From: Rhynchopus sp. YZ270_cl-10
Lineage: Eukaryota
NCBI GenBank assembly: GCA_964035575.1
Contig: OZ037844.1
Location: 372,001-436,000 of the forward strand
DNA length: 64,000 nt
Direction: 5' to 3'
This document shows positions 7,412-60,676 of this stretch, piece after piece. The position numbers and the translations under genes were made by a program. Each line of letters opens with the position of its first letter. Within the stretch, counting starts at the first letter, position 1. The notes under the pieces are model-generated. The model was given only the letters and a program-made list of their open reading frames with translations. It was not told the DNA's origin and ran no database searches.

Positions 7412-9067
7412 TCATTCTTCTGCACCGTGCTTGAGGAGAACCTGCACCACATCTGTATGTTGTTTCTGCCTCGCATAGTGCAACGCAGTGTGGCCCCAAA
7501 TATCCCCGTGGATCACATCCACCTTGTTCAAGCCCACAAGATAGCGCACAGTCTCGGTGTGTCCAACATACGCCGCAACGATAAGACACGTGTACCCATC
7601 GTCGTCCACCACACACACATCTGCACCTGCTTCCACCAACATCTTCACAATTTTTAGTTCCCCACCCTCACAAGCCCAGTGAAGAGGTGTGCTTCCTCTA
7701 TCATCCTTTGCATCGATGTCTGCCCCTGCATCAATGAGCAACTTCGACACATCTGAGTGCTTCTTTAACACTGCGTGGTGCAGTGCAGTGTTGCAACTGC
7801 TATTTGACTGATTCACATCCACCTCAGGCATGCACAGAAGAGTACGCACAGTCTCGGTGTGTCCATTGTAAGCCGCAAGAATAAGACACGTCTCTCCTTC
7901 GTTGTCTGTGACACGCACTCCTGCACCTGCTCTGACCAACACCTTCACAACACGCAGATTCCCAAACTCGCTCGCCGTTAGGAGTGGCGAACGTCCGTTA
8001 TTGTACGTTACCTCAATGTCTGCCCCTGCATCAAGGAGCACCTCCACCACATTTGCATCATTTTCATCAGCACAAGCTGCATGGAGCAGCGCAGTGCAGC
8101 CTTCATAAGCCTTGTGATCCACGTCGACCTGCAAACCCACAAGATAGTGCACAGTCTCGGTGTGTCCAAAATGCGCCGCATCGATAAGACATGTGTACCC
8201 GTTGTCATCCACCACACTCACGTCCGCACCTGCTTCCACCAACATCTCCACAACGTCGAGTCCCCCACCCTCACAAGCCCAGTGAAGAGGTGTGCTTCCT
8301 CTATCATCCTTTGCATCGATGTCTGCCCCTGCATCAATGAGCAACTTCGACACGGCTGAGTGCTTCGGTAACACTGAGTGGTGCAGTGCAGTGTTGCCCC
8401 TGTTATTTGACCGATTCACATCCACCTCAGGCATGCACACAAGAGTACGCACTGTCTCGGTGTGTCCAAAATAAGACGCAAGCATAAGACACGTGTCTCC
8501 GTAGTTGTCTGTGACACACACTGCCGCACCAGCTTCCACCAACATCTTCACAATGACGAACTTGCCCGAAATACTCGCCCTGAGCAGAGGCGAACGTCCC
8601 ATGTCGTCCTTTACCTCCATGTCTGCCCCTGCATCAATGAGGACCTGACACACTGCAGGGTCCTCCCACATGGCTGGACAGGGTCGATCTTCTTCTTCCT
8701 CCTGCCCGTGTGGGACAAACGCAACGTTGCTGCAGACTGACTTCCAATGCTGCAAGAGGACCTCCGTGCACGCAGTGTGGTCTGCGTGGATGCACTCACT
8801 CAGCAGCATCCCGAAGCCCATCTGCGTTGTCTCAACATACGGAAGAAGCAGTGCGAGGCATTCATCGTGGTTCCCTCTGCACGCCTCGTGCACAGCATTG
8901 AAGGCAACCGTTTTGCTGTCTGTGTCTGGGCTGAGCTTCTCAAGTCCCACCCGCACGGCAATCTTGTCGCCGTTCCTGGCAGCCTCCACCAAGACCGAGT
9001 CTGCAGAAGGCGTTCTTCTCTTTGGTGCCTTCTCGTCAGGTGTGCTGTCTGCGTGTTGCTTCGACAT
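7412..9067 (-). CDS. Ankyrin-repeat protein, copy 1 (constant N-terminus + 4 x 100-aa modules)
   Basis: 551-aa ORF with GxTPLHxA / LxxGADV ankyrin consensus; ends GAEE. Confidence 0.92.
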   Translation of the reverse strand: MSKQHADSTPDEKAPKRRTPSADSVLVEAARNGDKIAVRVGLEKLSPDTDSKTVAFNAVHEACRGNHDECLALLLPYVETTQMGFGMLLSECIHADHTACTEVLLQHWKSVCSNVAFVPHGQEEEEDRPCPAMWEDPAVCQVLIDAGADMEVKDDMGRSPLLRASISGKFVIVKMLVEAGAAVCVTDNYGDTCLMLASYFGHTETVRTLVCMPEVDVNRSNNRGNTALHHSVLPKHSAVSKLLIDAGADIDAKDDRGSTPLHWACEGGGLDVVEMLVEAGADVSVVDDNGYTCLIDAAHFGHTETVHYLVGLQVDVDHKAYEGCTALLHAACADENDANVVEVLLDAGADIEVTYNNGRSPLLTASEFGNLRVVKVLVRAGAGVRVTDNEGETCLILAAYNGHTETVRTLLCMPEVDVNQSNSSCNTALHHAVLKKHSDVSKLLIDAGADIDAKDDRGSTPLHWACEGGELKIVKMLVEAGADVCVVDDDGYTCLIVAAYVGHTETVRYLVGLNKVDVIHGDIWGHTALHYARQKQHTDVVQVLLKHGAEE

Positions 9068-9789
9068 GGTTTGTGAAAATGTTGATATTCAATGTTGTGT
9101 CTTTTGTGCTGTTTCTTTTAGTGGAGGTTGTGAGGTGAGTGGTGGGTGTGCCCACGTCAGGGCTGTCCCTTCTGCCTTGGGGGTGACTGTGTAGAAGTGC
9201 TCCAAACACTCCACTCTGGGTGTCAATTGAGGTGTATGGGGAGAGGGAGGGGGAGGAAAAGAGGAAGTGGTTGCTGCTGTCTGTTTTTGCATCGACGTTT
9301 GTCTAGGTTTTGTTTCTGGGTTTTGCTTTTTCTTTGGGGGGGGGGAGAGAGCGTGGTCCTCAATCAGACGGAGAAAAAGAAAGAGGAGTTGAAACGTACT
9401 CAAACAGCTCGGTCACGCTCATGCTGGGTTAGGGTGGGACGTTCGAGCGTTCCGTACCGTGAGAGAACGGAGGCGGTTCACAACCGCTGGAAAAGCACGC
9501 TACCGCTTTATACCCCCAAGGCTAAATGGCCCGCTATGATATTGCACGATAGTTTCGGGAGTGAGAGAAAGAAAACATTGATAAAAAGATGACCCTAAGC
9601 CTTGCGTGCTTTGAAGCATGCTGGGGGTGTCTGCCTGCTCAAGGAGAACCTGCACTGCACACCACTGCTTGGTCTGTTCTGCATTCTTTCGTCGATGTTG
9701 AAATGCTCTTTCTTCACACATCCAGTGGAAGTGCTCGTACCCCATACTGCCGTAGACGCTGGCACGAGGGGCTTGACGCGTCCACAGCA

Positions 9790-11457
9790 TCATTCTTCTG
9801 CACCGTGCTTGAGGAGAACCTGCTCCACATCTGTATGTTGTTTCTGCCTCGCATAGTGCAACGCAGTGTGGCCCCAAATATCCCCGTGGATCACATCCAC
9901 CTTGTTCAAGCCCACAAGATAGCGCACAGTCTCGGTGTGTCCAACATACGCCGCAACGATAAGACACGTGTACCCATCGTCGTCCACCACACACACATCT
10001 GCACCTGCTTCCACCAACATCTCCACAACGTCGAGTCCCCCACCCTCACAAGCCCAGTGAAGAGGTGTGCTTCCTCTATCATCCTTTGCATCGATGTCTG
10101 CCCCTGCATCAATGAGCAACTTCGACACATCTGAGTGCTTCTTTATCACTGCGTGGTGCAGTGCAGTGTTCCCTCTGCTATTTGACTGATTCACGTCCAC
10201 CTCAGGCATGCACAGAAGAGTACGCACAGTCTCGGTGTGTCCATTGTAAGACGCAAGAATAAGACACGTCTCTCCTTCGTTGTCTGTGACACACACTCCT
10301 GCACCTGCTTTGACCAACACCTTCACAACACGCAGATTCCCAAACTCGCTCGCCGTGAGGAGTAGTGAACGTCCGTTATTGTACGTTACCTCAATGTCTG
10401 CCCCTGCATCAATGAGCACCTCCACCACATCTGCATGGTGTTCATCAGCTGCATGGAGCAACGCAGTGCAGCCGTCATTATCCTTGTGATCCACGTCGAC
10501 CTGCAGCAAACCCACAAGATAGTACACAGTCTCGGTGTGTCCAAAATACGCCGCATCGATAAGACATGTGTACCCGTTGTCGTCCACCACACTCACGTCC
10601 GCACCTGCTTCCACCAACATCTCCACAATGTCGAGTTCCCCACCCTCACAAGCCCAGTGAAGAGGTGTCCTTCCTTTACCAGCTTTTGCATCGATGTCTG
10701 CCCCTGCATCAATGAGCAACTTCGACACGGCTGAGTGCTTCTTCAACACTGCGTGGTGCAATGCGGTGTTGCCACTGATATTTGACCGATTCACGTCCAC
10801 CTCAGGCATGCACAGAAGAGTACGCACCGTCTCGGTGTGTCCAAAATAAGACGCAAGCATAAGACATGTGTCTCCGTAGTTGTCTGTGACACACACTCCT
10901 GCACCTGCTTCAACCAACATCTTCACAATGACGACCTTGCCCGAAATACTCGCCCTGAGCAGAGGCGAACGTCCGCTCTCGTCCTTCACCCCGATGTCTG
11001 CCCCGGCATCAATGAGCACCTGACACACTGCAGGGTCCTTCCACATGGCTGGACAGGGACGAGGTGTGGTACTACCTTCGTTGTCTTCCTCTATCCCGTG
11101 TGGGACAAACGCAACGTTGCTGCAGACAGACTTCCAATGCTGCAAGAGGACCTCCGTGCACGCAGTGTGGTCTGCGTGGATGCACTCACTCAGCAGCATC
11201 CCGAAGCCCATCTGCGTTGTCTCAACATACGGAAGAAGCAGTGCGAGGCATTCATCGTGGTTCCCTCTGCATGCCTCGTGCACGGCATCGAAGGCAACCT
11301 TTTTGCTGTCTGTGTCTGGGCTGAGCTTCTCAAGTCCCGCCCGCACGGCAGTCGTGTCGCCGTTCCTGGCAGCCTCCACCAAGACCGAGTCTGCAGAAGG
11401 CGTTCTTCTCTTTGGTGCCTTCTCGTCAGGTGTGCTGTCTGCGTGTTGCTTCGACAT
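9790..11457 (-). CDS. Ankyrin-repeat protein, copy 2 (4 modules)
   Basis: 555-aa ORF; tandem duplicate of copy 1 including flanks (period about 2.4 kb). Confidence 0.92.
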   Translation of the reverse strand: MSKQHADSTPDEKAPKRRTPSADSVLVEAARNGDTTAVRAGLEKLSPDTDSKKVAFDAVHEACRGNHDECLALLLPYVETTQMGFGMLLSECIHADHTACTEVLLQHWKSVCSNVAFVPHGIEEDNEGSTTPRPCPAMWKDPAVCQVLIDAGADIGVKDESGRSPLLRASISGKVVIVKMLVEAGAGVCVTDNYGDTCLMLASYFGHTETVRTLLCMPEVDVNRSNISGNTALHHAVLKKHSAVSKLLIDAGADIDAKAGKGRTPLHWACEGGELDIVEMLVEAGADVSVVDDNGYTCLIDAAYFGHTETVYYLVGLLQVDVDHKDNDGCTALLHAADEHHADVVEVLIDAGADIEVTYNNGRSLLLTASEFGNLRVVKVLVKAGAGVCVTDNEGETCLILASYNGHTETVRTLLCMPEVDVNQSNSRGNTALHHAVIKKHSDVSKLLIDAGADIDAKDDRGSTPLHWACEGGGLDVVEMLVEAGADVCVVDDDGYTCLIVAAYVGHTETVRYLVGLNKVDVIHGDIWGHTALHYARQKQHTDVEQVLLKHGAEE

Positions 11458-12085: not shown

Positions 12086-14506
12086 TCACACATCCAGTGA
12101 CGAAGGGGAAAGAAAATAAGTAATTCCTATCAAAAAATAATAATAAAAACGGGATGTGCTGTGAATACGGGGTACCCACGCTCCTGGCACTCCACCCTGT
12201 AGAAATAACCTACAACACGCCCAGCACTCTGCTCTGCTGCAGGTATGCGAAAACGCGGCTTCTGCACCGTGCTTGAGGAGAACCTGCTCCACATCTGCAT
12301 GTTGTTCCTGCCTCGCATGGTGCAACGCAGTGTGGCCCAACAAATCTCTGTGGTTCACATCCACCTCCCGCAAGCCAACGAGATAGCGCACAGTCTCGGC
12401 ATGTCCAAAACTAGCCGCAAGGATGAGACATGTGGACCCGGCGTCGTCCACCACACTCACGTCCGCACCTGCTTTCACCAACATCTTCACAATTTCGAGT
12501 TCCCCAACCTCACAAGCACAGTGAAGAGGTGTGCTCCCTTCGCTATCCTTTGCCTCAACATCTGCCCCTGCATCAATGAGCACCTTCGACACAGCAAAGT
12601 CCTTCTGTGACACTGCGAAGTGCAGTGGAGTGTTGCCCTCAGCATTTGACTGATTTACATCCACCTCAGTCATGCACAGAAGAGTACGCACAGTCTCGGT
12701 GTGTCCAACGTCAACCGCAAGGATAAGACATGTGTACCCATCGTCGTCCACCACACTCACGTCCGCACCTGCTTCCACCAACATCTCCACAATGTCGAGT
12801 TCCCCACCCTCACAAGCCCAGTGAAGAGGTGTGCTTCTTCTGCTAGTCTGTGCCTCAATGTCTGCCCCTGCATCAATGAGCAACTTCGACACAGCTGAGT
12901 ACTTCTGTGACACTGCAAGGTGAAGTGGAGTGAAGCCTTCGGTATTTGAATGATTCACATCCACCTCCCGCAAGCCAACGAGATAGCGCACAGTCTCGGC
13001 ATGTCCAAAACTAGCCGCAACGATAAGACACGTGTACCCGTCGTCATCCACCACACACACGTCCGCACCTGCTTCCACCAACATCTCCACAATGTCGAGT
13101 TCCCCAACCTCACAAGCCCAGTGAAGAGGTGTCCTTCCTTTACCAGCTTTTGCATCGATGTCTGCCCCTGCATCAATGAGCAACTTCGACACGGCTGAGT
13201 GCTTCGGTAACACTGCGTGGTGCAGTGCAGTGTCGCCACTGATATTTGACCGATTCACATCCACCTCAGGCATGCACAGAAGAGTACGCATAGTCTCGGT
13301 GTGTCCCAAAGAAGCCGCAGTGGTAAGACACGTATGTCCCTGACTATCCGTGACACACACGTCCGCACCTGCTTTGACCAACACCTTCACAACCTGGGGA
13401 TTCCCACACTGACTTGCCACGAGGAGTGGCGAACGCCCGTCGTTACCCTTCACCTCAATGTCAGCCCCTGCATCAATGAGCACCTGCATCACATCTGCAT
13501 GATTCAATTCCACAGCGACTTCGAGCACAGCACTGTAACCGTCATCACTCTTATGACTCCCGTGGGCCTGAGACAAACCCACAAGAAAGCGCACAGTCTC
13601 GGTGTGTCCATAGCGTGCCGCAAACATAAGACATGTGTCTCCGAAGTTGCACGTAACACACGCACCTGCACCTGCTGCCACCAAAATTATCACAACTGCG
13701 AGTGCTCCTGAACGGCAAGCCCAGTGCAGAGGCGAACATCCCTGCTCGTCCGTTGTCTCGATGTCTGCACCTGCATCAATGAGCACCTCCACCACATCTG
13801 CATGGTTTCGAAGTACTGCATTGAACAACGCAGACCAATCGTCATCAGCTTTGTGATTCACGTTCACATCTTTCAAGCCGACAAGATAGCGCACAGTCTC
13901 GGTGTGTCCATCTGCCGCAATGGTAAGACATGTGTTTCCCCTGTCGTCTGTGACACACACTCCCGCACCTGCTTCCACCAACATCTTCACGACTGCTAAT
14001 TCTCCTGAATGGCAAGACCAGTGCAGAGGCGAACGTCCCATGTCGTCCTTTGTCTCGATGTCTGACCCTGCATCAATGAGCACCTGACACACTGCAGGGT
14101 CCGCCCACATGGCTGGACAGGGTCGGTCTTCTCCTTCCTCCTGCCCGTATGGGACAAACGCAACGTTGCTGCAGACTGACTTCCAATGCTGCAAGAGGAC
14201 CTCCGTGCACGCAGTGTGGTCTGCGTGGATGCACTCACTCAGCAGCATCCCGAAGCCCATCTGCGTTGTCTCAACATACGGAAGAAGCAGTGCGAGGCAT
14301 TCATCGTGGTTCCCTCTGCATGCCTCGTGCACAGCATCGAAGGCAATCTTTTTGCTGTCTGTGTCTGGGCTGAGCTTCTCAAGTCCCGCCCGCACAGCAG
14401 TCGTGTCGCCGTTCCTGGCAGCCTCCACCAAGACCTCGTCTGCAGAAAGCTTTCTTCTCTTTGGTGCCTTCTCGTCAGGTGTGCTGTCTGCGTGTTGCTT
14501 CGACAT
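12086..14506 (-). CDS. Ankyrin-repeat protein, copy 3 (6 modules, novel C-terminal tail)
   Basis: 806-aa ORF; the family GAEE-stop is replaced by GAEAAFSH... from about 12260. Confidence 0.9.
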   Translation of the reverse strand: MSKQHADSTPDEKAPKRRKLSADEVLVEAARNGDTTAVRAGLEKLSPDTDSKKIAFDAVHEACRGNHDECLALLLPYVETTQMGFGMLLSECIHADHTACTEVLLQHWKSVCSNVAFVPYGQEEGEDRPCPAMWADPAVCQVLIDAGSDIETKDDMGRSPLHWSCHSGELAVVKMLVEAGAGVCVTDDRGNTCLTIAADGHTETVRYLVGLKDVNVNHKADDDWSALFNAVLRNHADVVEVLIDAGADIETTDEQGCSPLHWACRSGALAVVIILVAAGAGACVTCNFGDTCLMFAARYGHTETVRFLVGLSQAHGSHKSDDGYSAVLEVAVELNHADVMQVLIDAGADIEVKGNDGRSPLLVASQCGNPQVVKVLVKAGADVCVTDSQGHTCLTTAASLGHTETMRTLLCMPEVDVNRSNISGDTALHHAVLPKHSAVSKLLIDAGADIDAKAGKGRTPLHWACEVGELDIVEMLVEAGADVCVVDDDGYTCLIVAASFGHAETVRYLVGLREVDVNHSNTEGFTPLHLAVSQKYSAVSKLLIDAGADIEAQTSRRSTPLHWACEGGELDIVEMLVEAGADVSVVDDDGYTCLILAVDVGHTETVRTLLCMTEVDVNQSNAEGNTPLHFAVSQKDFAVSKVLIDAGADVEAKDSEGSTPLHCACEVGELEIVKMLVKAGADVSVVDDAGSTCLILAASFGHAETVRYLVGLREVDVNHRDLLGHTALHHARQEQHADVEQVLLKHGAEAAFSHTCSRAECWACCRLFLQGGVPGAWVPRIHSTSRFYYYFLIGITYFLSPSSLDV

Positions 14507-16087
14507 GGTTTGTGAAGATGTTGATATTCAATGTTGTGTCTTTTATGCTGTTTCTTTTTGTGGAGGTTGTGAGGTGAGTGGTGGGTGTCCCTGAACTGCC
14601 TCCCGCCCCTGACAAGCACAGCCACAGTGGAAACGGGTGGTGTGGAAGTCTCCCTCCTGAGGGTGGTGGGAATCTATCTGCACTTACCCCCAAACGACGG
14701 AGTGTAGTATGGGTTACCATGTGTCCATTCTAAATGCGTCCGTTCGCGCTCCCCAAGCCTACACCACGCTTTGCCTCGAGCAGATCCCCCTCAGTGAACT
14801 CTGTACTCTGTGACCCCCTTCGCAATCGTCCGCTTCATTGTTCTGTATGGTGTCTGCATGCTCAAGGAGAACCTGCACTGCACACCACTGCTTGGTCTGT
14901 TCCGCATTCTTTCGTCGATGCTGAAATGCTCCTTCTTCACACATCAGTGACGAAGATTTATTTGTCCCTTTGTCAAAATGTCTTTGTTTTTCTCTTTGTC
15001 TATTTTTCCTGCATTTCTTATTCTCTTCTTTGTACTTTCTTTTGTTTTGGTTGTTGTTAGATACGCTCAATCGCCTATCGAGTTCTGTGAATAGCACGGA
15101 ACTCCTTTTCATGTGTATCCATGGAAAGACAGTATCATATGTGATACCGGAAAATTTTGAAAAAGGGTGTCATTGAGAAAAGCAAAGTGAAGTTGATAGT
15201 GCAAACGCCTCGGGGACACAGGCACTGACACTCCGCGGGTTATCGAACCCCGGAGTGTTGCGCTTGGGAAACAAACAACGGACGGGCTGTATATTTTCAT
15301 CATATGGGTGAATTTTTTTTGCCCCCCCACGTTTCAAACCGCGAAACATTTTTTTTTGGCAAAGACAATTTTCAGCTGAAAAAAAAAAAAATTTTTTTTT
15401 CCCCCTGACAGGGCCTGTGCTCGAAAAAAAAAATTTTTTTTTTCTGTGGGTGAAAAAGACATGTCGAAAAAAATAAAATAAAAATATAGTCGCCCCGGCG
15501 GGCCCTCGCCCCATTTTTGATATGATAATGATCTGAACCAATGATTTCTTTACTTTAGTTTTTCTGCAAGTGCGGCTGTTGTGACCCTTCTTGTCACACT
15601 TACTACATGCTGTGCGCTGTGCGATTTTATTGACTTAAATTTTTTCAAAATATGAACCCATACTCGTAAACAAGGGTCATTTTCAGGTTTGAAAACCCAA
15701 CTTCAGATGAAATTGTGGTGTTTTGAGTGGGAACACAGTAGCGCCGCAGGCGCACGGTACCCAACTTTTGTCTTTTTTCTTTTTCCCTTTTCTCTGCTTT
15801 CTTTTGATTGCGCGAGCCGATTGCTCTCCACGGTGGGGTCATATGTGTGTGCAAAAACACTCTGAAGTACCCTTACTGTGAAATATGAGATTCTCTGGTT
15901 TTAGTAAGGAAAAACGTACCGAGCAAAATCGTCAAAAATCTACGGTAGTCGGGGTGCGGGATTCGTGACCCAAAACATCGGTTTTTGGCATTTCTGAATC
16001 TTTTCCAGAAAGCGGTGGGGTCATTTCGAAAAAATGGACAAAATTTTAGTGACTTAAATTTTCACAAAATATGAACCCATACTCTTA

Positions 16088-27600: not shown

Positions 27601-29193
27601 TCATTCTTCTGCACCGTGCTTGAGGAGAACCTGCTCCACATCTGCATGTTGTTTCTCCTTCGCATAGTGCAACGCAGTGTGGCCCAAAAAATCCCCGTGG
27701 ATCACATCCACCTTGTTCAAGCCCACAAGATAGCGCACAGTCTCGGTGTATCCAAAATATGCCGCAACGATAAGACATGTGTACCCATCGTCGTCCACCA
27801 CACTCACGTCCGCACCTGCTTCCACCAACATCTTCACAATTTTCAGTTCCCCACCCTCACAAGCCCAGTGAAGAGGTGTGCTTCCTCTATAATCCTTTGC
27901 ATCGATGTCTGCCCCTGCATCAATGAGCAACTTCGACACAGCTGAGTGCTTCGATAACACTGCGCGGTGCAGTGGAGTTAAGTCCTCGTTATTTGACCGA
28001 TTCACATCCACCTCAGGCATGCACAGAAGAGTACGTACAGTCTTGGTGTGTCCATTGTCAGCCGCAAGCATGACACACGTCTCTCCTTCGTTGTCTGTGA
28101 CACGCACTCCTGCACCTGCTCTGACCAACATCTTCACCACTCGCAGATTCCCAAACTCGCTCTCCGCGAGGAGTGGCGAACGTCCGTTGTTATGCTTAAC
28201 CTCAATGTCTGCCCCTGCATCAAGGAGCACCTCCACCACATTTGCATGGTGTTCATCAGCTGCATGGAGCAACGCAGTGCAGCCGTCATTATCCTTGTGA
28301 TCCACGTCGACCTGCGGCAAACCCACAAGATAGCGCACAGTCTCAGTGTGTCCAAGATGCGCCGCATCGATAAGACATGTGTGCCCATTCTCCTCTGTAG
28401 CACACACATCTGCACCTGCTTCCACCAACATCTTCACAATGTCGAGTTCCCCACCCTCAGAAGCATAGTGAAGAGGTGTGATTCCTCTAACATCCTTTGC
28501 ATCGATGTCTGCCCCTGCATCAATGAGCAACTTCGACACATCTGAGTGCTTCTTTAACACTGCGCCGTGCAGAGCAGAGTCGTCGGTGTGTCCATGACAT
28601 GCCGCAAACATAAGACATGTGCATCCGCAGTTGCACGTACTACACACTCCCGCACCTGCTTCCACCAACATCTTCACAACTGCGAGTGCTCCTGAACGAC
28701 AAGCCAAGTGCAGAGGCGAACGTCCCATGTCATCCTTTGTCTCGATGTCTGCCCCTGCATCAATGAGCACCTGACACACTGCAGGGTCCTCCCACATGGC
28801 TGGACAGGGTCGGTTTTCTCCTTCCTCCTTCCCGTGTGGGACAAACGCAACGTTGCTGCAGACTGACTTCCAATGCTGCAAGAGGACCTCCGTGCACGCA
28901 GTGTGGTCTGCGTGGACGCACTCACTCAGCAGCATCCCGAAGCCCATCTGCGTTGTCTCAACATACGGAAGAAGCAGTGCGAGGCATTCATCGTGGTTCC
29001 CTCTGCATGCCTCGTGCACAGCATCGAAGGCAACCGTTTTGCTGTCTGTGTCTGGTCTGAGCTTCTTCAGTCCCACCCGCACGGCAGTCGTGTCGCCGTT
29101 CCTGGCAGCCTCCACCAAGACCGAGTCTGCAGAAACTGTTGTGCTGTGTGGTGTCTCGTCAGGTGTGCTGTCTGCGTGTTGCTCCTTCGACAT
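27601..29193 (-). CDS. Ankyrin-repeat protein, copy 4 (4 modules, in-frame deletion in module 1)
   Basis: The family start MSKEQ is the ATG at 29193 (530 aa). The GHT|DDSALH junction lacks roughly 20 aa relative to paralogs. Confidence 0.9.
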   Translation of the reverse strand: MSKEQHADSTPDETPHSTTVSADSVLVEAARNGDTTAVRVGLKKLRPDTDSKTVAFDAVHEACRGNHDECLALLLPYVETTQMGFGMLLSECVHADHTACTEVLLQHWKSVCSNVAFVPHGKEEGENRPCPAMWEDPAVCQVLIDAGADIETKDDMGRSPLHLACRSGALAVVKMLVEAGAGVCSTCNCGCTCLMFAACHGHTDDSALHGAVLKKHSDVSKLLIDAGADIDAKDVRGITPLHYASEGGELDIVKMLVEAGADVCATEENGHTCLIDAAHLGHTETVRYLVGLPQVDVDHKDNDGCTALLHAADEHHANVVEVLLDAGADIEVKHNNGRSPLLAESEFGNLRVVKMLVRAGAGVRVTDNEGETCVMLAADNGHTKTVRTLLCMPEVDVNRSNNEDLTPLHRAVLSKHSAVSKLLIDAGADIDAKDYRGSTPLHWACEGGELKIVKMLVEAGADVSVVDDDGYTCLIVAAYFGYTETVRYLVGLNKVDVIHGDFLGHTALHYAKEKQHADVEQVLLKHGAEE

Positions 29194-29820: not shown

Positions 29821-31185
29821 TCATTCTTCTGCACCGTGCTTGAGGAGAACCTGCTCCACATCTGTATGTTGTTTCTCCCTCGCATGGTGCAATGCAGTGT
29901 GGCCCAAAAAATCCCTCTGGTTCACATCCACCTCCCGCAAGCCAACGAGATAGCGCACAGTCTCGGTGTGTCCAAAATACGCCGCATCGATAAGACACGT
30001 GTACCCATCGTCGTCCACCACACACACATCTGCACCTGCTTCCATCAACATCTGCACAATTTTTAGTTCCCCACCCTCACAAGCCCAGTGAAGAGATGTC
30101 CTTCCTTTACCAGACTTTGCCTCGATGTCTGCCCCTGCATCAATGAGCAACTTTGACACATCTGAGTGTTTCACTATCACTGCGAAGTGCAGTGGAGTGA
30201 CGCCCTCGGTATATGAGCCATTCACGTCCACCTCAGGCATGCACAGAAGAGTACGCATAGTCTCGGTGTGTCCCAAAGAAGCCGCACTGGTGAGACACGT
30301 ATGTCCCGTACTATCGGTGACACACACGTCAGCACCTGCTCTGACCAACATCTTCACAAACTGGGGATTCCCACGATAGCTCGCCTCAAGGAGTGGCGAA
30401 TGTCCGTCGGTGTACTTAACCTCAATGTCTGCCCCTGCATCAATGAGCACCTGCATCACATCTGCATGGTTTCGAAATACTGCACCGAACATCGCAGACA
30501 AGTGGTCCTCAGCTTTGTGATTCAGGTCCCCACTCTTCAAACCCACAAGATAGCGCACAGTCTCGGTGTGTCCATGATATGCCGCAAAAATAAGACATGT
30601 GTTTCCTTTGTTGCACGTACCACACACTCCCGCACCTGCTGCCACCAAAAATTTCGCAACTGCGAGTGCTCCTGAACGACAAGCAAAGTGCAGAGCCGAA
30701 CGTCCCATGTCGTCCTTTGTCTCGATGTCTGCCCCTGCATCAATGAGCACCTGACACACTGCAGGGTCCTCCCACATGGCTGGACAGGGTCGGTCTTTGA
30801 TGTCCTCCTGCCCGTGTGGGACAAACGCAACGTTGCTGCAGACAGACTTCCAATGCTGCAAGAGGACCTCCGTGCACGCAGTGTGGTCTGCGTGGACGCA
30901 CTCACTCAGTAGCATCCCGAAGCCCATCTGCGTTGTCTCAACATACGGAAGAAGCAGTGCGAGGCATTCATCGTGGTTCCCTCTGCATGCCTCGTGCACA
31001 GCATCGAAGGCAACCGTTTTGCTGTCTGTGTCTGGGCTGAGCTTCTCAAGTCCCGCCCGCACGGCAGTTGTGTCGCCGTTCCTGGCAGCCTCCACCAAGA
31101 CCTCGTCTGCAGAAAGCTTTCTTCTCTTTGGTGCCTTCTCGTCAGGTGTGCTGTCTGCGTGTTGTTTCGACGAGGTGAGACCCAT
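29821..31185 (-). CDS. Ankyrin-repeat protein, copy 5 (3 modules; rearranged 5' end)
   Basis: The family ATG is lost; the nearest in-frame ATG is at 31185 (MGLTSSKQHAD...). Confidence 0.85.
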   Translation of the reverse strand: MGLTSSKQHADSTPDEKAPKRRKLSADEVLVEAARNGDTTAVRAGLEKLSPDTDSKTVAFDAVHEACRGNHDECLALLLPYVETTQMGFGMLLSECVHADHTACTEVLLQHWKSVCSNVAFVPHGQEDIKDRPCPAMWEDPAVCQVLIDAGADIETKDDMGRSALHFACRSGALAVAKFLVAAGAGVCGTCNKGNTCLIFAAYHGHTETVRYLVGLKSGDLNHKAEDHLSAMFGAVFRNHADVMQVLIDAGADIEVKYTDGHSPLLEASYRGNPQFVKMLVRAGADVCVTDSTGHTCLTSAASLGHTETMRTLLCMPEVDVNGSYTEGVTPLHFAVIVKHSDVSKLLIDAGADIEAKSGKGRTSLHWACEGGELKIVQMLMEAGADVCVVDDDGYTCLIDAAYFGHTETVRYLVGLREVDVNQRDFLGHTALHHAREKQHTDVEQVLLKHGAEE

Positions 31186-36038: not shown

Positions 36039-37047
36039 TTTTGGACTTGTATGGGAGGGAGGGGGAGGCTGAAAGCTTTGGTAAAGGAAAGGGCTTTGTA
36101 AGAGGTGTGAGAGTTTGTAAGATGACCCGTAAGCTTCTCGTGCTGTGTCACCTTGAAACAGAGAAAGGGTAGTTGAAACGTGCTAAAATGCAGTCCGGTC
36201 GTGGGTGCAAAGGGTGTGGAGTGGTCCGTACCATTTGGAGACCGGAGGCGGTCCCACAAAACGCTCGGAAAATAATGAAAACCCCCTTCTGATCTTATGT
36301 ATAGTTGGTATGCGACCCCCTCGTCATACGCACTTTCAGTCAGAAGGGGTCTATGGGTTAATTTGGTTTCTGCTCTTTTTGACATCGCCCATGGTATATT
36401 TACAGTTGCTAAAAAGGGGGTGTGTGCATCCACTGGAGAGGGTCAAAAGTGCTCGAACAGGATTTTTTTTTGGATCTGGCAGCAACTGCTTCCCCGTGTT
36501 TCTACCGTATTTCTCCCGGTGGTCAATGTGGGAAAACAATTCTCGTTGGTGAAGCTTTTAAACACCGGTGGTGGGGTCAATTTGCCGAAATGGACAAGTT
36601 CTCGTTGTTGATCAATTTCCTCGCAGTACACAGTAGCCACCAGGAAAAGGGGGAAGATTATTTTCGTTGAACGCAGCCAAAAACAGTGTTTCAGATCTGA
36701 ATTTGGACGCAAGCGATTTTTAAAAAAGGGAGGGAGAAAATAGTCGGTATCAGACGATGAAACGGTGGCTTTATTATTCAGATTTGTAATAACACTGTGT
36801 GTAAGGGGAAAAAGAGAGAGAAAGTGAAAGAGTGGTTGAAACGTTAATTGGAGAACGGAGTCGGTTCACAAACCGCCCAGAAAAAAACCTTAATGTACCA
36901 CACTCTGTTGATTCTAAAAACGGGGGTGGGAAAAATCGCGCATGGAAAAATGGGGGAGATATTGATAAAAGTTGGAAAGCTTCCTCACCCACATCACACT
37001 AAAATACAAAGGTTTGGGTTTGAATGGGGTGGGTTCTTCTTCAGACA

Positions 37048-37621: not shown

Positions 37622-38989
37622 TCACTCTTCTGCACCGTGCTCGAGGAGAACGTGCACCACATCTGTATATTGATTCTGCCTAGCCAAAGACAACGCAGTG
37701 AGGCCTCTCCAATCCCTCTGGTTCACATCCACCTCCTGCAAGCCCGCAAGATAGCCCACAACAGCCTTGGTGCATCGAGACACCTGCACAGCCGCAAACA
37801 TAAGACATGTCGTGCTTGCGTCGTCCACCACACACACGTCCGCACCTGCTTTGAGCAACTTCTGCACAATGTCGAGTTCCCCACCCATACAAGCAAAGTG
37901 AAGAGGTGTCGCACCTTGTATATCCTTTGCCTCGATGTCTGCCCCTGCATCAACGAGCAGCTGCATCACATCAGCATGTCCTCCTCCCTGCAGTGCCACG
38001 TGCAACGCAGTGCGTCCGTTGTTCCCTGAGTGATTCAGATCCACATCCTTCAAGCCTGCAAGATAGCGTACAGTCTCGGTGTGTCCATTGGCAGCCGCAA
38101 AGATAAGACATGTATAACCTTTACTGTCTATGCCACGTACTCCGGCACCTGCTTCGACCAACATCTTCACAACATCGAGTGCTCCTGAATAACAAGACCA
38201 GTGCAGAGGAGAACGTCCCATGTCGTCCTTTGTCTCGATGTCTGCCCCTGCATCAATGAGCACCTCTACCACATCAGCATGTCCTCGCTGCAGTGCGCAG
38301 TTCAACGCAGTGACTCCGTACTTCCCTGAGTGATTCAGATCCACATCCTTCAAGCCTGCAAGATAGCGCACAGTCTCGGTGTGTCCACTGGAAGCCGCAA
38401 AGATAAGACATGTGCTTCCTTTACTGTCTATGCCACGTACTCCTGCACCTGCTTCGACCAACATCTTCACAACATCGAGTGCTCCTGAACGACAAGACCA
38501 GTGCAGAGGAGAACGTCCCATGTCATCCTTTGTCTCGATGTCTGCCCCTGCATCAATGAGCACCTGACACACTGCAGGGTCCTCCCACATGGCTGGACAG
38601 TCAGGGTTTTTGATGTCCTCCTGCCCGTGTGGGACAAACGCAACGTTGCTGCAGACTGACTTCCAATGCTGCAAGAGGACCTCCGTGCACGCAGTGTGGT
38701 CTGCGTGGATGCACTCACTCAGCAGCATCCCGAAGCCCATCTGCGTTGTCTCAACATACGGAAGAAGCAGTGCGAGGCATTCATCGTGGTTCCCTCTGCA
38801 TGCCTCGTGCACAGCATCGAAGGCAACCGTTTTGCTGTCTGTGTCTGGGCTGAGCTTCTCAAGTCCCACCCGCACGGCAGTCGTGTCGCCGCTCCTGGCA
38901 GCCTCCACCAAGACCTCGTCTGCAGAAAGTGTTGTGATGTGTGGTGCCTTCTCGTCAGGTGTGCTGTCTGCGTGTTGCTCCTTCGACAT
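37622..38989 (-). CDS. Ankyrin-repeat protein, copy 6 (3 modules; modules 1 and 2 a recent internal duplication)
   Basis: 455-aa ORF; near-identical sequence at 300-bp spacing (about 38025 and 38325). Confidence 0.92.
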   Translation of the reverse strand: MSKEQHADSTPDEKAPHITTLSADEVLVEAARSGDTTAVRVGLEKLSPDTDSKTVAFDAVHEACRGNHDECLALLLPYVETTQMGFGMLLSECIHADHTACTEVLLQHWKSVCSNVAFVPHGQEDIKNPDCPAMWEDPAVCQVLIDAGADIETKDDMGRSPLHWSCRSGALDVVKMLVEAGAGVRGIDSKGSTCLIFAASSGHTETVRYLAGLKDVDLNHSGKYGVTALNCALQRGHADVVEVLIDAGADIETKDDMGRSPLHWSCYSGALDVVKMLVEAGAGVRGIDSKGYTCLIFAAANGHTETVRYLAGLKDVDLNHSGNNGRTALHVALQGGGHADVMQLLVDAGADIEAKDIQGATPLHFACMGGELDIVQKLLKAGADVCVVDDASTTCLMFAAVQVSRCTKAVVGYLAGLQEVDVNQRDWRGLTALSLARQNQYTDVVHVLLEHGAEE

Positions 38990-40268
38990 GGTTTGTGCAG
39001 ATGTTGATATTCAATGTTGTGTCTTTTATGCTGTTTCTTTTTGTGGAGGTTGTGATGTGAGTGGTGGGTGGTGAGGCAGGAGTCTCAGGCTTTGACAAGA
39101 AACTGAAATTTGTTTTGCAGAAATACAGAAAAAGGTCCCAAACGTTGTCTCATAGTTGACTCTTCGTCTCAACCAACATGATACGTAGGGAGCTGGGGTC
39201 TTTGTTGACAGGTGGTCAAATCTTTGCAGCTGCTGTGAAAGTGCATTATTTTCCGCTGCAAAATGCAAGGGCAGCCTCTCCTGGACATCGGGAACTTTGT
39301 AGTATTTCAGCCAAAAAAGCGTTCAAGGTCACCCACGTGGGTCTAACCACTTGAAACCTTCTACAATTCTACAGGTCACCCCACGAAGAACCCTCGATTC
39401 GTACCCATGCCATGTCAGAGTATGTGCGCTATTCTTTGCATGCAGTACGTCCCTGAATAATCTATCCCTGAAAGCAAAGACCAGACTCTGACAGTCGCCA
39501 ACTGATCTTGATTACTCGACCAGGAAAGGAGAAAGATTATTTTCGTTGAACGCACCCAAAAACAGTGTGTCAGATCTGAATTTGGGCGCAAGCGATTTTT
39601 AAAAAAGGGAGGGAGAAAATAGTCGGTATCAGACGATGAAACGGTGGCTTTATTATTCAGATTTGTAATAACACTGTGTGTAAGGGGAAAGAGAGAGAGA
39701 AAGTGAAAGAGTGGTTGAAACGTTAATTGGAGAACGGAGTCGGTTCACAAACCGCCCAGAAAAAAATCTTAATGTACCACACTCTGTTGATTCTAAAAAC
39801 GAGGGTGAGAAAAGTCGCGAATGGAAAAATGGGGGAGATATTGATAAAAGTTGGAAAGCTTCCTCACCCACATCACACTAAAATACAAAGGTTTGGGTTG
39901 AATGGGGTGGGTTCTTCTTCAGACGGTTGAACACAAAACTCTTCTTCATTTTATGTTTTTGAAAGAATATAACAAATACTCGCGAAATAGTTCAAGATTG
40001 AACTGAGAGAAAGAAGAAGAAACCCCAAACCCTCCCAGACCAAACGGTCTAACCTGTTGCATTGACATACTGTGGGGGAGAAGTGAGGAGCACGAGAATC
40101 GTCTTCGTGAAGACTAAAGGATTTCCTAAGATATGTCACAAGTGACGTGTCCCCGGGAAAAAAGAGTGAGAAAGTTCGAGACTCCAAAACATATCACAAA
40201 AAAAGAGACAACAAAAAACATGGGAGCTGTGCCTCCAGATAGGATTTCTGGACCACTGCGCGTTAGCA

Positions 40269-41321
40269 TCACTCTTCTGCACCGTGCTCGAGGAGAACGT
40301 GCACCACACCTGCATGTTGTTCCTGCTTCGCAATGGACAACGCAGTGAGGCCCTTCCAATTCCTCTGGTTCACATCCACCTCCTTCAAGCCCGCAAGATA
40401 GCCCACAACAGCCTTGGTGCATCGAGACACCTGCCTAGCCGCAAGCATAAGGCATGTTGTGCTATTGTCGTCCACCACACACACGTCCGCACCTGCTTTG
40501 AGCAACTTCTGCACAATGTCGAGTTTCCCACCTATACAAGCCCAGTGAAGAGGTGTCTTACCTTGTATATCCTTTGCATCGATGTCTGCCCCTGCATCAA
40601 TGAGCAACTCAACCACATCTAAATGCTTCTTTAGCACTGCTTGGTGCAGTGGAGTGCAGCCCCTGTTATCTGACTGATTCACATCCACCTCAGGCATGCA
40701 CAGAAGAGTACGCACAGTCTCGGTGTGTCCATTGACAGCCGCAAGCTTAAGACATGAGGCGCCTCTGCTGTTTGTGACACGCACCTCCGCACCTGCTCTG
40801 ACCAACACCTTCACAACTGCGAGTTCTCCTGAACAGCAAGCCCGGTGCAGAGGTGAACGTCCACTCTCATCTTTCACCTCGATGTCTGCCCCTGCATCAA
40901 TGAACACCTGACACACTGCAGGGTCCGCCCACATGGCTGGACAGGCACGGCACTCCTGCCCGTGTGGGACAAACGCAACGTTGCTGCAGACTGACTTCCA
41001 ATGCTGCAAGAGGACCTCCGTGCACGCAGTGTGGTCTGCGTGGATGCACTCACTCAGCAGCATCCCGAAGCCCATCTGCGTTGTCTCAACATACGGAAGA
41101 AGCAGTGCGAGGCATTCATCGTGGTTCCCTCTGCATGCCTCGTGCACAGCATCGAAGGCAACCTTTTTGTTATTTGTGTCTGGGCTGAGCTTCTCAAGTC
41201 CCACCCGCACGGCAGTCGTGTCGCCGTTCCTGGCAGCCTCCACCAAGACCTCGTCTGCAGAAAGCTTTCTTCTCTTTGGTGCCTTCTCGTCAGGTGTGCT
41301 GTCTGCGTGTCGCTTCGACAT
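40269..41321 (-). CDS. Ankyrin-repeat protein, copy 7 (2 modules)
   Basis: 350-aa ORF with the family N-terminus and GAEE end. Confidence 0.92.
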   Translation of the reverse strand: MSKRHADSTPDEKAPKRRKLSADEVLVEAARNGDTTAVRVGLEKLSPDTNNKKVAFDAVHEACRGNHDECLALLLPYVETTQMGFGMLLSECIHADHTACTEVLLQHWKSVCSNVAFVPHGQECRACPAMWADPAVCQVFIDAGADIEVKDESGRSPLHRACCSGELAVVKVLVRAGAEVRVTNSRGASCLKLAAVNGHTETVRTLLCMPEVDVNQSDNRGCTPLHQAVLKKHLDVVELLIDAGADIDAKDIQGKTPLHWACIGGKLDIVQKLLKAGADVCVVDDNSTTCLMLAARQVSRCTKAVVGYLAGLKEVDVNQRNWKGLTALSIAKQEQHAGVVHVLLEHGAEE

Positions 41322-42576
41322 GGTTTGTGAAGATGTTGATATTCAATGTTGTGTCTTTTATGCTGTTTCTTTTTGTGGAGGTTGTGAGGCAGGGGTCTCA
41401 GGCTTTGCCAAGAAACTGAAATTTGTTTTGCAGAAATACAAAAAAAAGGTCCCAAACGTTGTCTCGTAGTTGACTCTTCGTCTCAACCAACATAACACGT
41501 AGGGAGCTGGGTTCTTTGTTGACAGGTGGTCAAATCTTTGCAGCTGCTGTGAAAGTGCATTATTTTCGCTGAAAAATGCAAGGGCAGCCTCTCCTGGACA
41601 TCGGGAACTTTGTAGTACAGCCAAAAAAGCGTTCAAGGTCACCCACGTGGGTCCAACCACTTGAAATCTTCTACAATTCTACAGGTCACCCCTACGAAGA
41701 ACCCTCGATTCGTACCCATGCCATGTCAGAGTATGTGCGCTATTCTTTGCATGCAGTACGTCCCTGAATAATCTATCCCTGAAAGCAAAGACCAGACTCT
41801 GACAGTCGCCAACTGATCTTGATTACTCGACCAGGAAAGGAGAAAGATTATTTTCGTTGAACGCACCCAAAAACAGTGTGTCAGATCTGAATTTGGGCGC
41901 AAGCGATTTTTAAAAAGGGGAGGGAGAAAATAGTCGGTAGCAGACGATGAAACGGTGGCTTTATTATTCAGGTTTGTAATAACACTGTGTGTAAGGGGAA
42001 AGAGAGAGAGAAAGTGAAAGAGTGGTTGAAACGTTAATTGGAGAACGGAGTCGGTTCACAAACCGCCCAGAAAAAAATCTTAATGTACCACACTCTGTTG
42101 ATTCTAAAAACGAGGGTGAGAAAAGTCGCGAATGGAAAAATGGGGGAGATATTGATAAAAGTTGGAAAGCTTCCTCACCCACATCACACTAAAATACAAA
42201 GGTTTGGGTTGAATGGGGTGGGTTCTTCTTCAGACGGTTGAACACAAAACTTCTTCATTTTATGTTTTTGAAAGAATATAACAAATCCTCGCGAAATAGT
42301 TCAAGATTGAACTGAGAGAAAGAAGAAGAAACCCCAAACCCTCCCAGACCAAACGGTCTAACCTGTTGTATTGATATAGTGTGGGGGAGAAGTGAGGAGC
42401 ACGAGAATCGTCTGCGCGAAGACTAAAGGATTTCCTAAGATATGTCACAAGTGTCGTGTCCCGGGGGGAAAAGAGTGAGAAAGTTCGAGACTCCAAAACA
42501 TATCACAAAAAAAGAGACAACAAAAAACATGGGAGTTCTGCCTCCAGATAGGCTTTCTGGACCACTGCGCATAGCA

Positions 42577-44235
42577 TCATTCTTCTGCACCGTGCTCTAG
42601 GAGAACCTGCACCACACCTGTATGTTGATTCTGCCTAGCCAAAGACAACGCAGTGAGGCCTCTCCAATCCCTCTGGTTCACATCCACCTCCCGCAAGCCC
42701 GCAAGATAGCCCACAACAGCCTTGGTGCATCGAGACACCTGCAGAGCCGCAAACATAAGACATGTCGTGCTTGCGTCGTCCACCACACACACGTCCGCAC
42801 CTGCTTTGAGCAACTTCTGCACAATGTCGAGTTCCCCAGCGCTACAAGCACAGTGAAGAGGTGTCGTACCTTGTACATCCTTTGCCTCGATGTCTGCCCC
42901 TGCATCAATCAGCAACTGCACCACATCTGAGTGCTGCATTGACACTGCGAAGTGCAGTGGAGTGTAGCCCCTGTCATTTGACTGATTCACATCCACCTCA
43001 GGCATGCACAGAAGAGTACGCACCGTCTCGGTGTCTGCATTGGTAGCAGCAAGCTCAAGACATGAGCCTCCGCCGTTGTTTGTAACACGCACCCCCGCAC
43101 CTGCTCTGACCAACATCTTCACAACTGCGAGTGCTCTTGAACAGCAAGCCAAGTGCAGAGGCGAATGACCATGCTCATCCTGCACCTCCATGTCTGCCCC
43201 TGCATCAATAAGCACCTCCACCACATCTGGATGGTTTTTCCAAGCAGCAAGGAGCACCGCAGTGCAGCCGTCACTATCTCTGTGATTCACGTCCACCTCA
43301 GGCAGGTTCACAAGATAGCGCACAGTCTCAGTGTTGCCAAAGTCCGCAGCCAGCAGAAGACATGTGTCTCCTCTGTTGTCTGTGGCACGTACTCCTGCGC
43401 CTGCTCTGACCAACATCTTCACAAACTGGGGTTGATAGGCGCTTACCACGTGGAGTGCCGAACCCCCTTCGTTGTTCCTTGCCTCAATGTCTGCCCCTGC
43501 ATCAATGAGCACCTCCACCACATCAGCATATCCTCCCTTCAGTGCGCAGTGCAACGCAGTGCGTCCGTGGTTCCCTGAGTGATTCAAATCCACATCCTTC
43601 AAGCCTGCAAGATAGCACACAGTCTCGGTGTGTCCACTGGAAGCCGCAAAGATAAGACATGTGCTTCCTTCACTATCTATGCCACGTACTCCGGCACCTG
43701 CTTCGACCAACATCTTCACAGCATCGAGTGCTCCTGAACGACAAGACCAGTGCAGAGGCGAACGTCCCATGTCGTCCTTTGTCTCGATGTCTGCCCCTGC
43801 ATCAATGAGCACCTGACACACTGCAGGGTCCTCCCACATGGCTGGACAGGGTCGGTCTTCTCTGTACTCCTGCCCGTGTGGTACAAACGCAACGTTGCTG
43901 CAGACAGACTTCCAATGCTGCAAGAGGACCTCCGTGCACGCAGTGTGGTCTGCGTGGACGCACTCACTCAGCAGCATCCCGAAGCCCATCTGCGTTGTCT
44001 CAACATACGGAAGAAGCAGTGCGAGGCATTCATCGTGGTTCCCTCTGCATGCCTCGTGCACGGCATCGAAGGCAACCGTTTTGCTGTCTGTGTCTGGGCT
44101 GAGCTTCTCAAGTCCCGCCCGCACGGCAGTCGTGTCGCCGTTCCTGGCAGCCTCCACCAAGACCGAGTCTGCAGAAAGCTTTCTTCTCTTTGGTGCCTTC
44201 TCGTCAGGTGTGCTGTCTGCGTGTCGCTTCGACAT
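42577..44235 (-). CDS. Ankyrin-repeat protein, copy 8 (4 modules)
   Basis: 552-aa ORF; third unit of the 36.65-44.3 kb tandem triplication. Confidence 0.92.
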   Translation of the reverse strand: MSKRHADSTPDEKAPKRRKLSADSVLVEAARNGDTTAVRAGLEKLSPDTDSKTVAFDAVHEACRGNHDECLALLLPYVETTQMGFGMLLSECVHADHTACTEVLLQHWKSVCSNVAFVPHGQEYREDRPCPAMWEDPAVCQVLIDAGADIETKDDMGRSPLHWSCRSGALDAVKMLVEAGAGVRGIDSEGSTCLIFAASSGHTETVCYLAGLKDVDLNHSGNHGRTALHCALKGGYADVVEVLIDAGADIEARNNEGGSALHVVSAYQPQFVKMLVRAGAGVRATDNRGDTCLLLAADFGNTETVRYLVNLPEVDVNHRDSDGCTAVLLAAWKNHPDVVEVLIDAGADMEVQDEHGHSPLHLACCSRALAVVKMLVRAGAGVRVTNNGGGSCLELAATNADTETVRTLLCMPEVDVNQSNDRGYTPLHFAVSMQHSDVVQLLIDAGADIEAKDVQGTTPLHCACSAGELDIVQKLLKAGADVCVVDDASTTCLMFAALQVSRCTKAVVGYLAGLREVDVNQRDWRGLTALSLARQNQHTGVVQVLLEHGAEE

Positions 44236-58047: not shown

Positions 58048-58050
<3 letters not shown>

Positions 58051-60672: not shown

Positions 60673-60676
60673 CTAG

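What the first reader, a model, noticed from the sequence alone, without database searches (positions are those of the whole stretch)
7412..44235. Ankyrin modules are patchworks exchanged between paralogs and between module positions
Seen: AKAGKGRTPLHWACE.GELDIVEM is in module 2 of copy 2 but module 4 of copy 3. AKDDRGSTPLHWACEGGGLDVVEM is in module 2 of copy 1 but module 4 of copy 2. HKDNDGCTALLHAADEHHA is shared by copies 2 and 4 but not by copy 1, the tandem twin of copy 2. GHTCLT.AASLGHTETMRT is shared by copies 3 and 5. The RGIDS.G.TCLIFAA...KDVDLNHSG module is doubled in copy 6 and single in copy 8. Inference: out-of-register gene conversion or unequal crossover uses the conserved ATGTCTGCCCCTGCATCAATGAGCA anchor that recurs every 300 bp.
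Basis: partly seen in the sequence, partly recalled or inferred. Interest (0 to 1): 0.7.

Follow-up and report, generated by a model that had tools for sequence, protein, structure and literature searches.

The report
Shuffled ankyrin repertoire in a diplonemid
A single-celled organism, likely a marine diplonemid, carries a large family of ankyrin-repeat genes whose 300-base blocks are patchworks of neighbouring copies and whose predicted binding-face residues change faster than neutral, so the family likely works as a self-renewing library of binding proteins, like fungal immune receptors but without their switch domain.

Summary
Nine intronless ankyrin genes (one lies outside the given coordinates) share a conserved ~140-aa head and carry 2-6 modules of 300 bp, 33 in all. 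All five shared motifs are present. Mosaicism is real: 15 of 33 modules are significant recombinants, against at most 2 in 200 clonal simulations. Twin genes 1 and 2 differ six times more at silent module sites than in their flanks. Unequal crossover and gene conversion fit, and the anchor is the most homogenised block. But most detected switches fall at a second block (GHTETV) and long identical tracts run through the anchor. Three of the five examples need only descent or internal duplication. New here: codons on the predicted concave binding face have dN/dS about 3.3 (1.7 in a stricter model) against 0.5 elsewhere; the head search gives about 300 hits, every listed one with ankyrin families and none with a NACHT or NB-ARC domain. 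This is the repeat-shuffling regime known from fungal NLRs and Wolbachia, in a stand-alone ankyrin family of a likely diplonemid. A recognition or defence role is inferred, not shown.

The parts
7412..9067 (-). Ankyrin gene copy 1, 551 aa: head + 4 modules (repeat types HVV TTH VVV TTT)
9790..11457 (-). Ankyrin gene copy 2, 555 aa, tandem twin of copy 1, same architecture; flanks 99.6% and 98.3% identical to copy 1, modules 95.0%
12086..14506 (-). Ankyrin gene copy 3, 806 aa: head + 6 modules (HHH HH? VVV TTV TTV TTT); usual stop replaced by other sequence, giving a ~50-aa longer tail
27601..29193 (-). Ankyrin gene copy 4 from the family-type ATG: head + 4 modules (HHV with a 20-codon in-frame deletion, TTH VVV TTT)
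29821..31185 (-). Ankyrin gene copy 5, 454 aa: head + 3 modules in the basic order HHH VVV TTT; family 5' flank and start replaced, other ATG nearby
37622..38989 (-). Ankyrin gene copy 6, 455 aa: first module doubled (92% DNA identity between the two), 3 modules
40269..41321 (-). Ankyrin gene copy 7, 350 aa: head + 2 modules
42577..44235 (-). Ankyrin gene copy 8, 552 aa: head + 4 modules
52084..53448 (-). Ankyrin gene copy 9 (outside the finding), 454 aa: head + 3 modules HHH VVV TTT
8226..8353 (-). 128-nt tract of copy 1 (m1/m2) identical to copy 2 (m3/m4); runs through the anchor
   Evidence: coordinates converted from alignment columns; a contig over 8226-8292 has about twice single-copy depth in 2 runs
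10001..10128 (-). Partner of the 128-nt tract in copy 2; holds the 15-nt patch with 6 of the 7 differences between copy 1 m4 and copy 2 m4
10644..10741 (-). 98-nt tract of copy 2 (m1/m2, AKAGKGR) identical to copy 3 (m3/m4)
13108..13205 (-). Partner of the 98-nt tract in copy 3
10521..10554 (-). Crossover interval of the terminal-type to first-type hybrid module in copy 2 (TCLI-GHTETV region); same hybrid in copies 1 and 4
12967..12975 (-). Crossover interval of hybrid module 4 in copy 3, just after the GHAETV block
28570..28593 (-). Junction of the 60-nt out-of-phase deletion in copy 4 module 1, in the GHT block
38238..38262 (-). Anchor between the two doubled modules of copy 6; inferred crossover site of that duplication
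8319..8343 (-). Example of the 25-nt anchor (codes LLIDAGAD); 33 copies in the window, all inside the nine reading frames

Best explanation
This is a cluster of a large, stand-alone ankyrin-repeat gene family whose modules are mosaics of neighbouring copies, likely made by ordinary homologous recombination and likely kept because they renew a library of intracellular binding proteins. Shown: each gene is a conserved head plus 2-6 three-repeat modules; the basic order is first-type (H), middle-type (V), terminal-type (T); hybrid modules (TTH, TTV, HHV, HVV) and short foreign patches occur; codons on the predicted concave face have excess amino-acid change. Inferred: misaligned pairing of the 300-bp modules in and between neighbouring tandem copies gives unequal crossovers (module gain, loss, hybrids) and short gene conversions. 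These resolve in any of three conserved blocks (anchor, LVEAGA, GHTETV) and keep the frame because the period is a multiple of three. Inferred and untested: the variable face binds fast-changing foreign proteins (viral or endosymbiont) and blocks or tags them, while the conserved head caps the solenoid or docks a fixed host partner; a PKRRK-type basic motif would take many members to the nucleus. My odds: recombination origin about 0.9, diversifying selection about 0.8, defence or recognition role about 0.45.
For: Mosaic signal far above clonal nulls. Per-repeat trees conflict. Repeat typing gives clean hybrids. Copy 1 m4 and copy 2 m4 differ at 7 sites, 6 of them in 15 nt (p about 5e-6), and the copy 2 version equals copy 1 m2 over 128 nt. 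Twins differ at 18 of 280 silent module sites against 7 of 623 flank sites, p=2e-5. Exchange partners look local: 61 of 99 repeat-thirds have their best protein match in another window gene, though the window supplies 33 of 320 modules compared. Surface positions were fixed beforehand from designed-ankyrin libraries (2, 3, 5, 10, 13, 33 as in PMC4308713; 14 recalled): dN/dS 3.33 against 0.53. 82 recombining simulations with a neutral surface gave 0.80-1.32. Ten close module pairs give pN/pS 2.3 against 0.48. 14 of the 15 most variable columns family-wide are surface positions. The predicted model is one helical solenoid, pLDDT 86, nearest to ankyrins and DARPins. Same regime described for fungal NLR repeats.
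Against: With its own silent rate the surface dN/dS falls to 1.68 (2 x delta lnL = 10.2 against 1), so part of the excess may be faster or multi-base mutation, which the simulations did not include. Local sharing also follows from recent local duplication, and outside proteins are 90%-identity representatives, so close outside donors may be hidden. The direction of no conversion could be fixed. Family-wide linkage is weakest near GHTETV (0.256 against 0.18 at the anchor), but one and the same column scores 0.227 and 0.176 in the two halves of the test, so that contrast is partly drift. No ligand, location, expression or phenotype is known. The basic motif matched only 79 of 148 proteins and its reading as a nuclear signal is recalled. 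No effector or switch domain was seen that would turn binding into an outcome.
Confidence: 0.6

Rival explanations
1. Neutral turnover: recombination is real but a by-product of tandem repeats; the surface is merely unconstrained and mutates faster, and the family has no recognition role.
For: The silent rate at surface codons fits about twice the framework rate and dN/dS then drops to 1.68. Some copies look degraded: copy 5 lost its 5' flank, copy 3 its stop, copy 4 twenty codons. Head core pN/pS is 0.58, not strongly constrained.
Against: dN/dS stays above 1 in that model. In close pairs silent divergence at surface codons is not raised (0.072 against 0.112) while replacement is threefold higher. 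All nine frames are open.
Confidence: 0.2
2. Directed shuffling: a dedicated mechanism uses the 25-nt anchor as a recombination signal to swap whole 300-bp cassettes.
For: The anchor is the most conserved block, also at silent sites (same codon in 92% of pairs with the same residue, against 76-84% in three other blocks). The copy 6 doubling maps to it by sequence logic; 8 of 18 intervals lie at or within about 30 nt of it.
Against: Hybrid modules switch inside the module. Long identical tracts cross the anchor. All 33 anchors are coding, with no free donor cassettes in the window. Repeat type is strongly linked across the anchor family-wide (Cramer V 0.65).
Confidence: 0.07
3. Assembly or polishing artefact: reads from different paralogs were mixed into chimeric consensus genes.
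For: High-copy family; no listed public contig spans a whole gene; no raw long reads were available.
Against: At 100% likeness, contigs of run X1 cover 29 of 29 bins of 8000-8480 (X2 and X3 26 of 29). The contig over 8226-8292 ends one base before copies 1 and 2 diverge and has depth 155 against about 80 (X3) and 195 against about 95-120 (X2), as two real copies would give (depth is only a hint). All frames stay open across junctions.
Confidence: 0.05
4. The genes are ankyrin effectors of viral or bacterial origin sitting in the host genome, or aimed at prey or host cells, not a defence library.
For: Giant viruses and intracellular bacteria carry such arrays. Some Atlas look-alike clusters of the head are viral, but they are generic ankyrin clusters.
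Against: Neighbours are eukaryotic genes with diplonemid relatives. The head has about 30 close relatives at 50%-cluster level and then drops to 28-46% identity hits. The N-terminus shows no hydrophobic signal stretch (sequence; no predictor run).
Confidence: 0.05
5. No exchange: shared motifs come from descent and convergence on the ankyrin consensus alone.
For: Three of the five cited examples fit descent or internal duplication.
Against: Clonal simulations with position-specific rates almost never give the signal; shared tracts are identical at silent sites over 98-128 nt.
Confidence: 0.03

Closest known systems
Fungal NLRs with highly conserved ANK, TPR or WD40 repeats (Podospora hnwd family and ANK NLRs; PMC4986451 passages, PMC2873952 abstract, PMC13449251 passages)
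   Same: Repeat gain, loss and exchange within and between paralogs, new hybrid repeat units, positive selection on the concave ankyrin face; unequal crossover and ectopic conversion proposed as the means.
   Different: No NACHT or NB-ARC domain and no death effector among the listed members; the unit is a three-repeat 100-aa module with typed positions; modules are mostly 65-85% alike within a gene; genes lie in tandem clusters and number in the hundreds.
Wolbachia ANK genes (PMC3563639 passages)
   Same: Intragenic recombination, chimeric repeats and repeat-number change through short direct repeats at the same place in each repeat, which keeps the frame.
   Different: Bacterial, few loci, compared between strains; here a nuclear paralog family with a shared head and measured surface selection.
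Bodo saltans virus ankyrin accordion, 148 genes (PMC5871332 passages)
   Same: Same-strand tandem expansion of variable-length ankyrin genes, read as an arms race in a euglenozoan setting.
   Different: Viral genome; its genes carry enzyme fragments at the 5' end, whereas the head here is ankyrin-like helices.
Diplonemid ankyrin orthogroup OG0000001 (PMC10161547, supplement rows: 393 in D. papillatum, 585 in R. humris, 389 in H. phaeocysticola)
   Same: Large ankyrin expansions in diplonemids are already catalogued.
   Different: A table row only; the search listing shows no 'ankyrin' in the main text. Whether this family belongs to that orthogroup was not tested.
Designed ankyrin libraries (ANK-N5C, DARPins; PMC4308713 passages)
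   Same: The positions randomised by engineers are the ones that vary most here; best fold match is a DARPin.
   Different: Synthetic; here variation is natural and shuffled in three-repeat blocks.

Membership tests
Ankyrin-repeat proteins | Tandem 33-aa ankyrin repeats above Pfam cut-off | tested here: met
   9 of 9 copies pass PF00023 and PF12796
Ankyrin-repeat proteins | Helix-turn-helix solenoid fold | tested here: met
   Predicted model of copy 5, pLDDT 86.4; best PDB matches DARPin and ankyrin-1, E about 1e-18
Fungal-type NLR with shuffling ANK repeats | Central NACHT or NB-ARC domain | tested here: not met
   None in 9 of 9 window copies, in the Pfam lists of the 120 shown of 278 near-length hits or in 28 of 28 longer hits (5 rescanned)
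Fungal-type NLR with shuffling ANK repeats | N-terminal death or enzyme effector domain | tested here: not met
   Head has no such Pfam hit, looks ankyrin-like by features and is helical in the model
Fungal-type NLR with shuffling ANK repeats | High internal conservation (85% identity over 100 aa) | tested here: inconclusive
   Copy 6 m1/m2 about 87% (counted by eye; 92% DNA); the next best within-gene pair listed is 84% DNA, copy 3 m4/m5
Fungal-type NLR with shuffling ANK repeats | Repeat exchange within and between paralogs | tested here: met
Fungal-type NLR with shuffling ANK repeats | Positive selection on the concave binding face | tested here: met
   dN/dS 3.33 (1.68 with own silent rate) against 0.53-0.59
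Fungal-type NLR with shuffling ANK repeats | Repeat-number polymorphism between strains | not testable with these tools
   Only short contigs of other runs were available
Fungal-type NLR with shuffling ANK repeats | Non-self recognition leading to cell death | not testable with these tools
   Needs experiments
Programmed cassette-shuffling system | Junctions at one dedicated signal | tested here: not met
   Intervals fall at three blocks; 3 of 18 include the anchor
Programmed cassette-shuffling system | Silent donor cassettes outside expressed genes | tested here: inconclusive
   None in the window: 33 of 33 anchors lie in the nine frames; the rest of the genome is not held

The most novel reading that the evidence does not exclude
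These genes are a natural DARPin library: a switch-less, intracellular and partly nuclear immune repertoire of a unicellular euglenozoan that keeps generating new binding faces against giant viruses or endosymbionts by fast module shuffling, possibly within clonal lineages.
Probability: 0.25. Interest if true: 0.75.

Novelty: new variant of a known kind. Interest (0 to 1): 0.45.

Why it matters
Repeat shuffling with selection on the binding face marks recognition arms races in fungi, symbionts and giant viruses. Finding it in a stand-alone ankyrin family of a likely diplonemid gives a concrete candidate for how this abundant, little-studied group recognises viruses or symbionts. It is testable: long reads give the shuffling rate, tagged copies give location and partners. 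The hybrids also show which ankyrin repeat combinations fold in nature. The mechanism itself is not new.

Tried and rejected
No whole genome is held, so DNA-level tests use only the 33 window modules. A first module split cut at the wrong repeats and was redone. AU tests rejected every foreign tree for each third, but each set holds that third's own best tree, so I rely on the clonal simulations (one search failed on a rounding error). A mutual-information linkage scan over-corrected and was dropped. A threshold version peaked at GHTETV but is biased by conserved columns and was replaced by a rank version. Rows left out of the family tests: 41 of 339 modules outside 95-106 aa, and all but the best 120 of 278 hits. 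The copying model chose the highest switch rate on its grid, so its switch counts are not events. No RNA holder listed. Run X4 has no exact cover over several variable stretches of copy 1; a hole proves nothing. The KAYEG patch of copy 1 resembles copy 9 in protein but differs at 2 of 9 bases, so a donor is not shown. Three look-ups of earlier findings returned nothing. Searches listed no paper on mosaic ankyrin genes in diplonemids; one search gave the fungal comparators. Subscription papers and bioRxiv supplements were not seen and may bear on this. No complex was predicted, as no partner is known.
Full report
Setting. Nearly all long frames up to 57 kb lie on the minus strand, the ankyrin frames without introns. 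Neighbours are a ubiquitin hydrolase, a lipase, a split GH123 glycosidase and two adenylate/guanylate cyclase frames. The hydrolase search gave 6 hits; after the window's own protein the best are 55% to a record labelled Rhynchopus euleeides and 46% to one labelled 'Rhum'. I infer a diplonemid; the species is not determined. No whole genome is held.

Anatomy. Nine ankyrin genes each have a head of about 140 aa, 93-97% identical in DNA, and 2-6 modules of about 100 aa, each three ankyrin repeats (A, B, C): 33 modules, 33 anchors. The anchor is simply the coding sequence of LLIDAGAD. Typing each repeat by similarity to chosen exemplars gives a basic order first (H), middle (V), terminal (T): copies 5 and 9 are HHH VVV TTT; copies 1 and 2 HVV TTH VVV TTT; copy 4 HHV TTH VVV TTT with 20 codons deleted; copy 3 HHH HH? 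VVV TTV TTV TTT (labels for copies 6-8 are less clean). A model of copy 5 from a 38-sequence alignment is one helical solenoid, mean pLDDT 86.4, with a disordered first 20 residues, nearest to a DARPin and ankyrin-1. A search with the head gave 278 near-length and 28 longer hits at E up to 0.001; weak hits may be generic ankyrins. None listed has a NACHT, NB-ARC or kinase family.

The observation. All five motif claims are correct. The two strongest sit in identical tracts of 128 and 98 nt between different module positions. PHI gives p=0.0005, third positions 0.0055; a Bonferroni-corrected triplet test marks 15 of 33 modules, best p 3e-10. Of 200 clonal simulations with position-specific rates, 3 gave any significant triplet, with at most 2 children. 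Twins 1 and 2 are 99.6% and 98.3% identical in their flanks but 95.0% in their modules; silent differences are 18 of 280 sites against 7 of 623 flank sites, p=2e-5, as expected if patches came from more distant paralogs (conserved or recently homogenised flanks would also give this). Module 4 of the twins differs at 7 sites, 6 within 15 nt (p about 5e-6), and the copy 2 version equals copy 1 module 2: a short conversion tract, direction unknown.

Artefact check. Four public runs, kept as contigs, hold the region. At 100% likeness X1 covers 29 of 29 bins of 8000-8480, X2 and X3 26, X4 18. A 67-nt contig over 8226-8292 ends just before copies 1 and 2 diverge and has about twice the depth of single-copy contigs in X2 and X3. 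This is a hint for two real copies, not proof; no piece spans a gene.

The anchor. It is the most homogenised 24-nt window (94.6%, next 86.4% and 79.2%; module mean 70.7%) and is conserved at silent sites. The copy 6 doubling must cross in or beside it, since it is the only homology between the head end and a module end (sequence). But hybrid modules switch inside the module. With modules cut at the anchor, 14 of 16 intervals overlap nt 150-231 around GHTETV and 2 lie at nt 86-95; that frame cannot see the anchor. With the anchor centred, 3 of 18 intervals include it, 5 lie within about 30 nt, 8 are in the GHTETV region and 2 near LVEAGA. These are not independent events. Over 182 module pairs from the wider family, linkage is weakest near GHTETV (0.256, CI 0.227-0.284) and tighter at the anchor (about 0.18), with a baseline drift of about 0.05 between the two halves of the test. 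So the anchor is one of three crossover blocks. Ordinal position misleads: copy 3 m3 and copy 5 m2 are both V modules, and copy 2 m1/m2 and copy 3 m3/m4 are both V-to-T junctions.

Locality. 61 of 99 repeat-thirds match best in another window gene, 31 outside, 7 tie. Local exchange fits, but so does recent local duplication, and close outside copies may be hidden by 90% clustering.

Selection. I fixed seven surface positions per repeat beforehand: 2, 3, 5, 10, 13 and 33 are the randomised positions in PMC4308713 (passages, read after the test); 14 is recalled from DARPin designs. A two-class codon model on per-repeat trees gives dN/dS 3.33 on the surface and 0.53 elsewhere (2 x delta lnL = 166 against surface = 1). 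Allowing the surface its own silent rate gives 1.68 (2 x delta lnL = 10.2). 82 simulations with recombination and a neutral surface returned 0.80-1.32; ten close module pairs give pN/pS 2.3 against 0.48. Family-wide, 14 of the 15 most variable columns are surface positions. Multi-base mutation was not simulated.

How it likely works. Misaligned 300-bp modules in tandem neighbours recombine; crossovers add, drop or fuse modules, conversions move short patches, the frame is kept, and selection favours new binding faces. The mosaics and the excess replacement are shown; the recombination routes are inferred. The proteins show no hydrophobic N-terminal stretch (sequence), and 79 of 148 matched a PKRRK-type pattern, which I recall as a nuclear signal. 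I commit to an intracellular recognition library against changing foreign proteins at about 0.45; nothing here identifies a ligand.

Known kin. Fungal NLRs show repeat shuffling within and between paralogs and selection on the concave ANK face (PMC4986451 passages; PMC2873952 abstract and outline; PMC13449251 passages). Wolbachia ANK genes recombine through short repeats at fixed places in the unit (PMC3563639 passages). Bodo saltans virus has 148 tandem ankyrin genes (PMC5871332 passages). Large diplonemid ankyrin counts stand in a supplement row of PMC10161547 (main text seen only as a search listing). This family works like the fungal repeat domains but is not an NLR. Searches listed no description of mosaic or selected ankyrin genes in diplonemids; the library is incomplete.

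Verdict. Observation confirmed, interpretation partly supported, new variant of a known kind, interest 0.45.

Noticed in passing
window 57767-63906: Likely tyrosine-recombinase retroelement: 279-bp direct repeats (98.6%) at both ends, an integrase frame 60779-61663 (PF00589, E 1e-8) overlapping a long frame 60748-63393 with only weak RT/RNase H hits, and 75-bp and 12-bp tandem arrays inside. DIRS/VIPER/TATE-like by recall.
   Followed up: partly
window 49288-50733 and 54845-56917: Two related adenylate/guanylate cyclase frames, 85% alike over 1.4 kb; the longer has hydrophobic N-terminal segments.
   Followed up: no
window 45510-49102: A GH123 glycosidase homologue in three consecutive frames that match successive parts of one Pfam model: introns or frameshifts.
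   Followed up: no
window 14847-14950: Upstream of copy 3 lies a copy of the family's 3' flank with no gene attached, suggesting a lost tenth copy.
   Followed up: no
window 7260-7300: The 3' flank of the copies holds a decayed echo of the last coding helix (sequence).
   Followed up: no
window 12086-12257: Copy 3's usual stop is replaced by about 160 bp of other sequence that public contigs show continuing elsewhere; the new tail has a hydrophobic run.
   Followed up: partly
window 20588-21873, 24640-26196, 60203-60651: Perfect microsatellites (7-mer x94 joined to 5-mer x127; 12-mer x37) and a 41-bp repeat array.
   Followed up: no
P0001-P0003, P0013, P0081: A subfamily elsewhere has a doubled head separated by an extra block of divergent ankyrin-like repeats.
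   Followed up: no
window 36639-37046, 39519-39924, 41830-42235: A 408-bp non-coding segment, 96-97% identical, downstream of copies 6, 7 and 8, part of their tandem unit.
   Followed up: no
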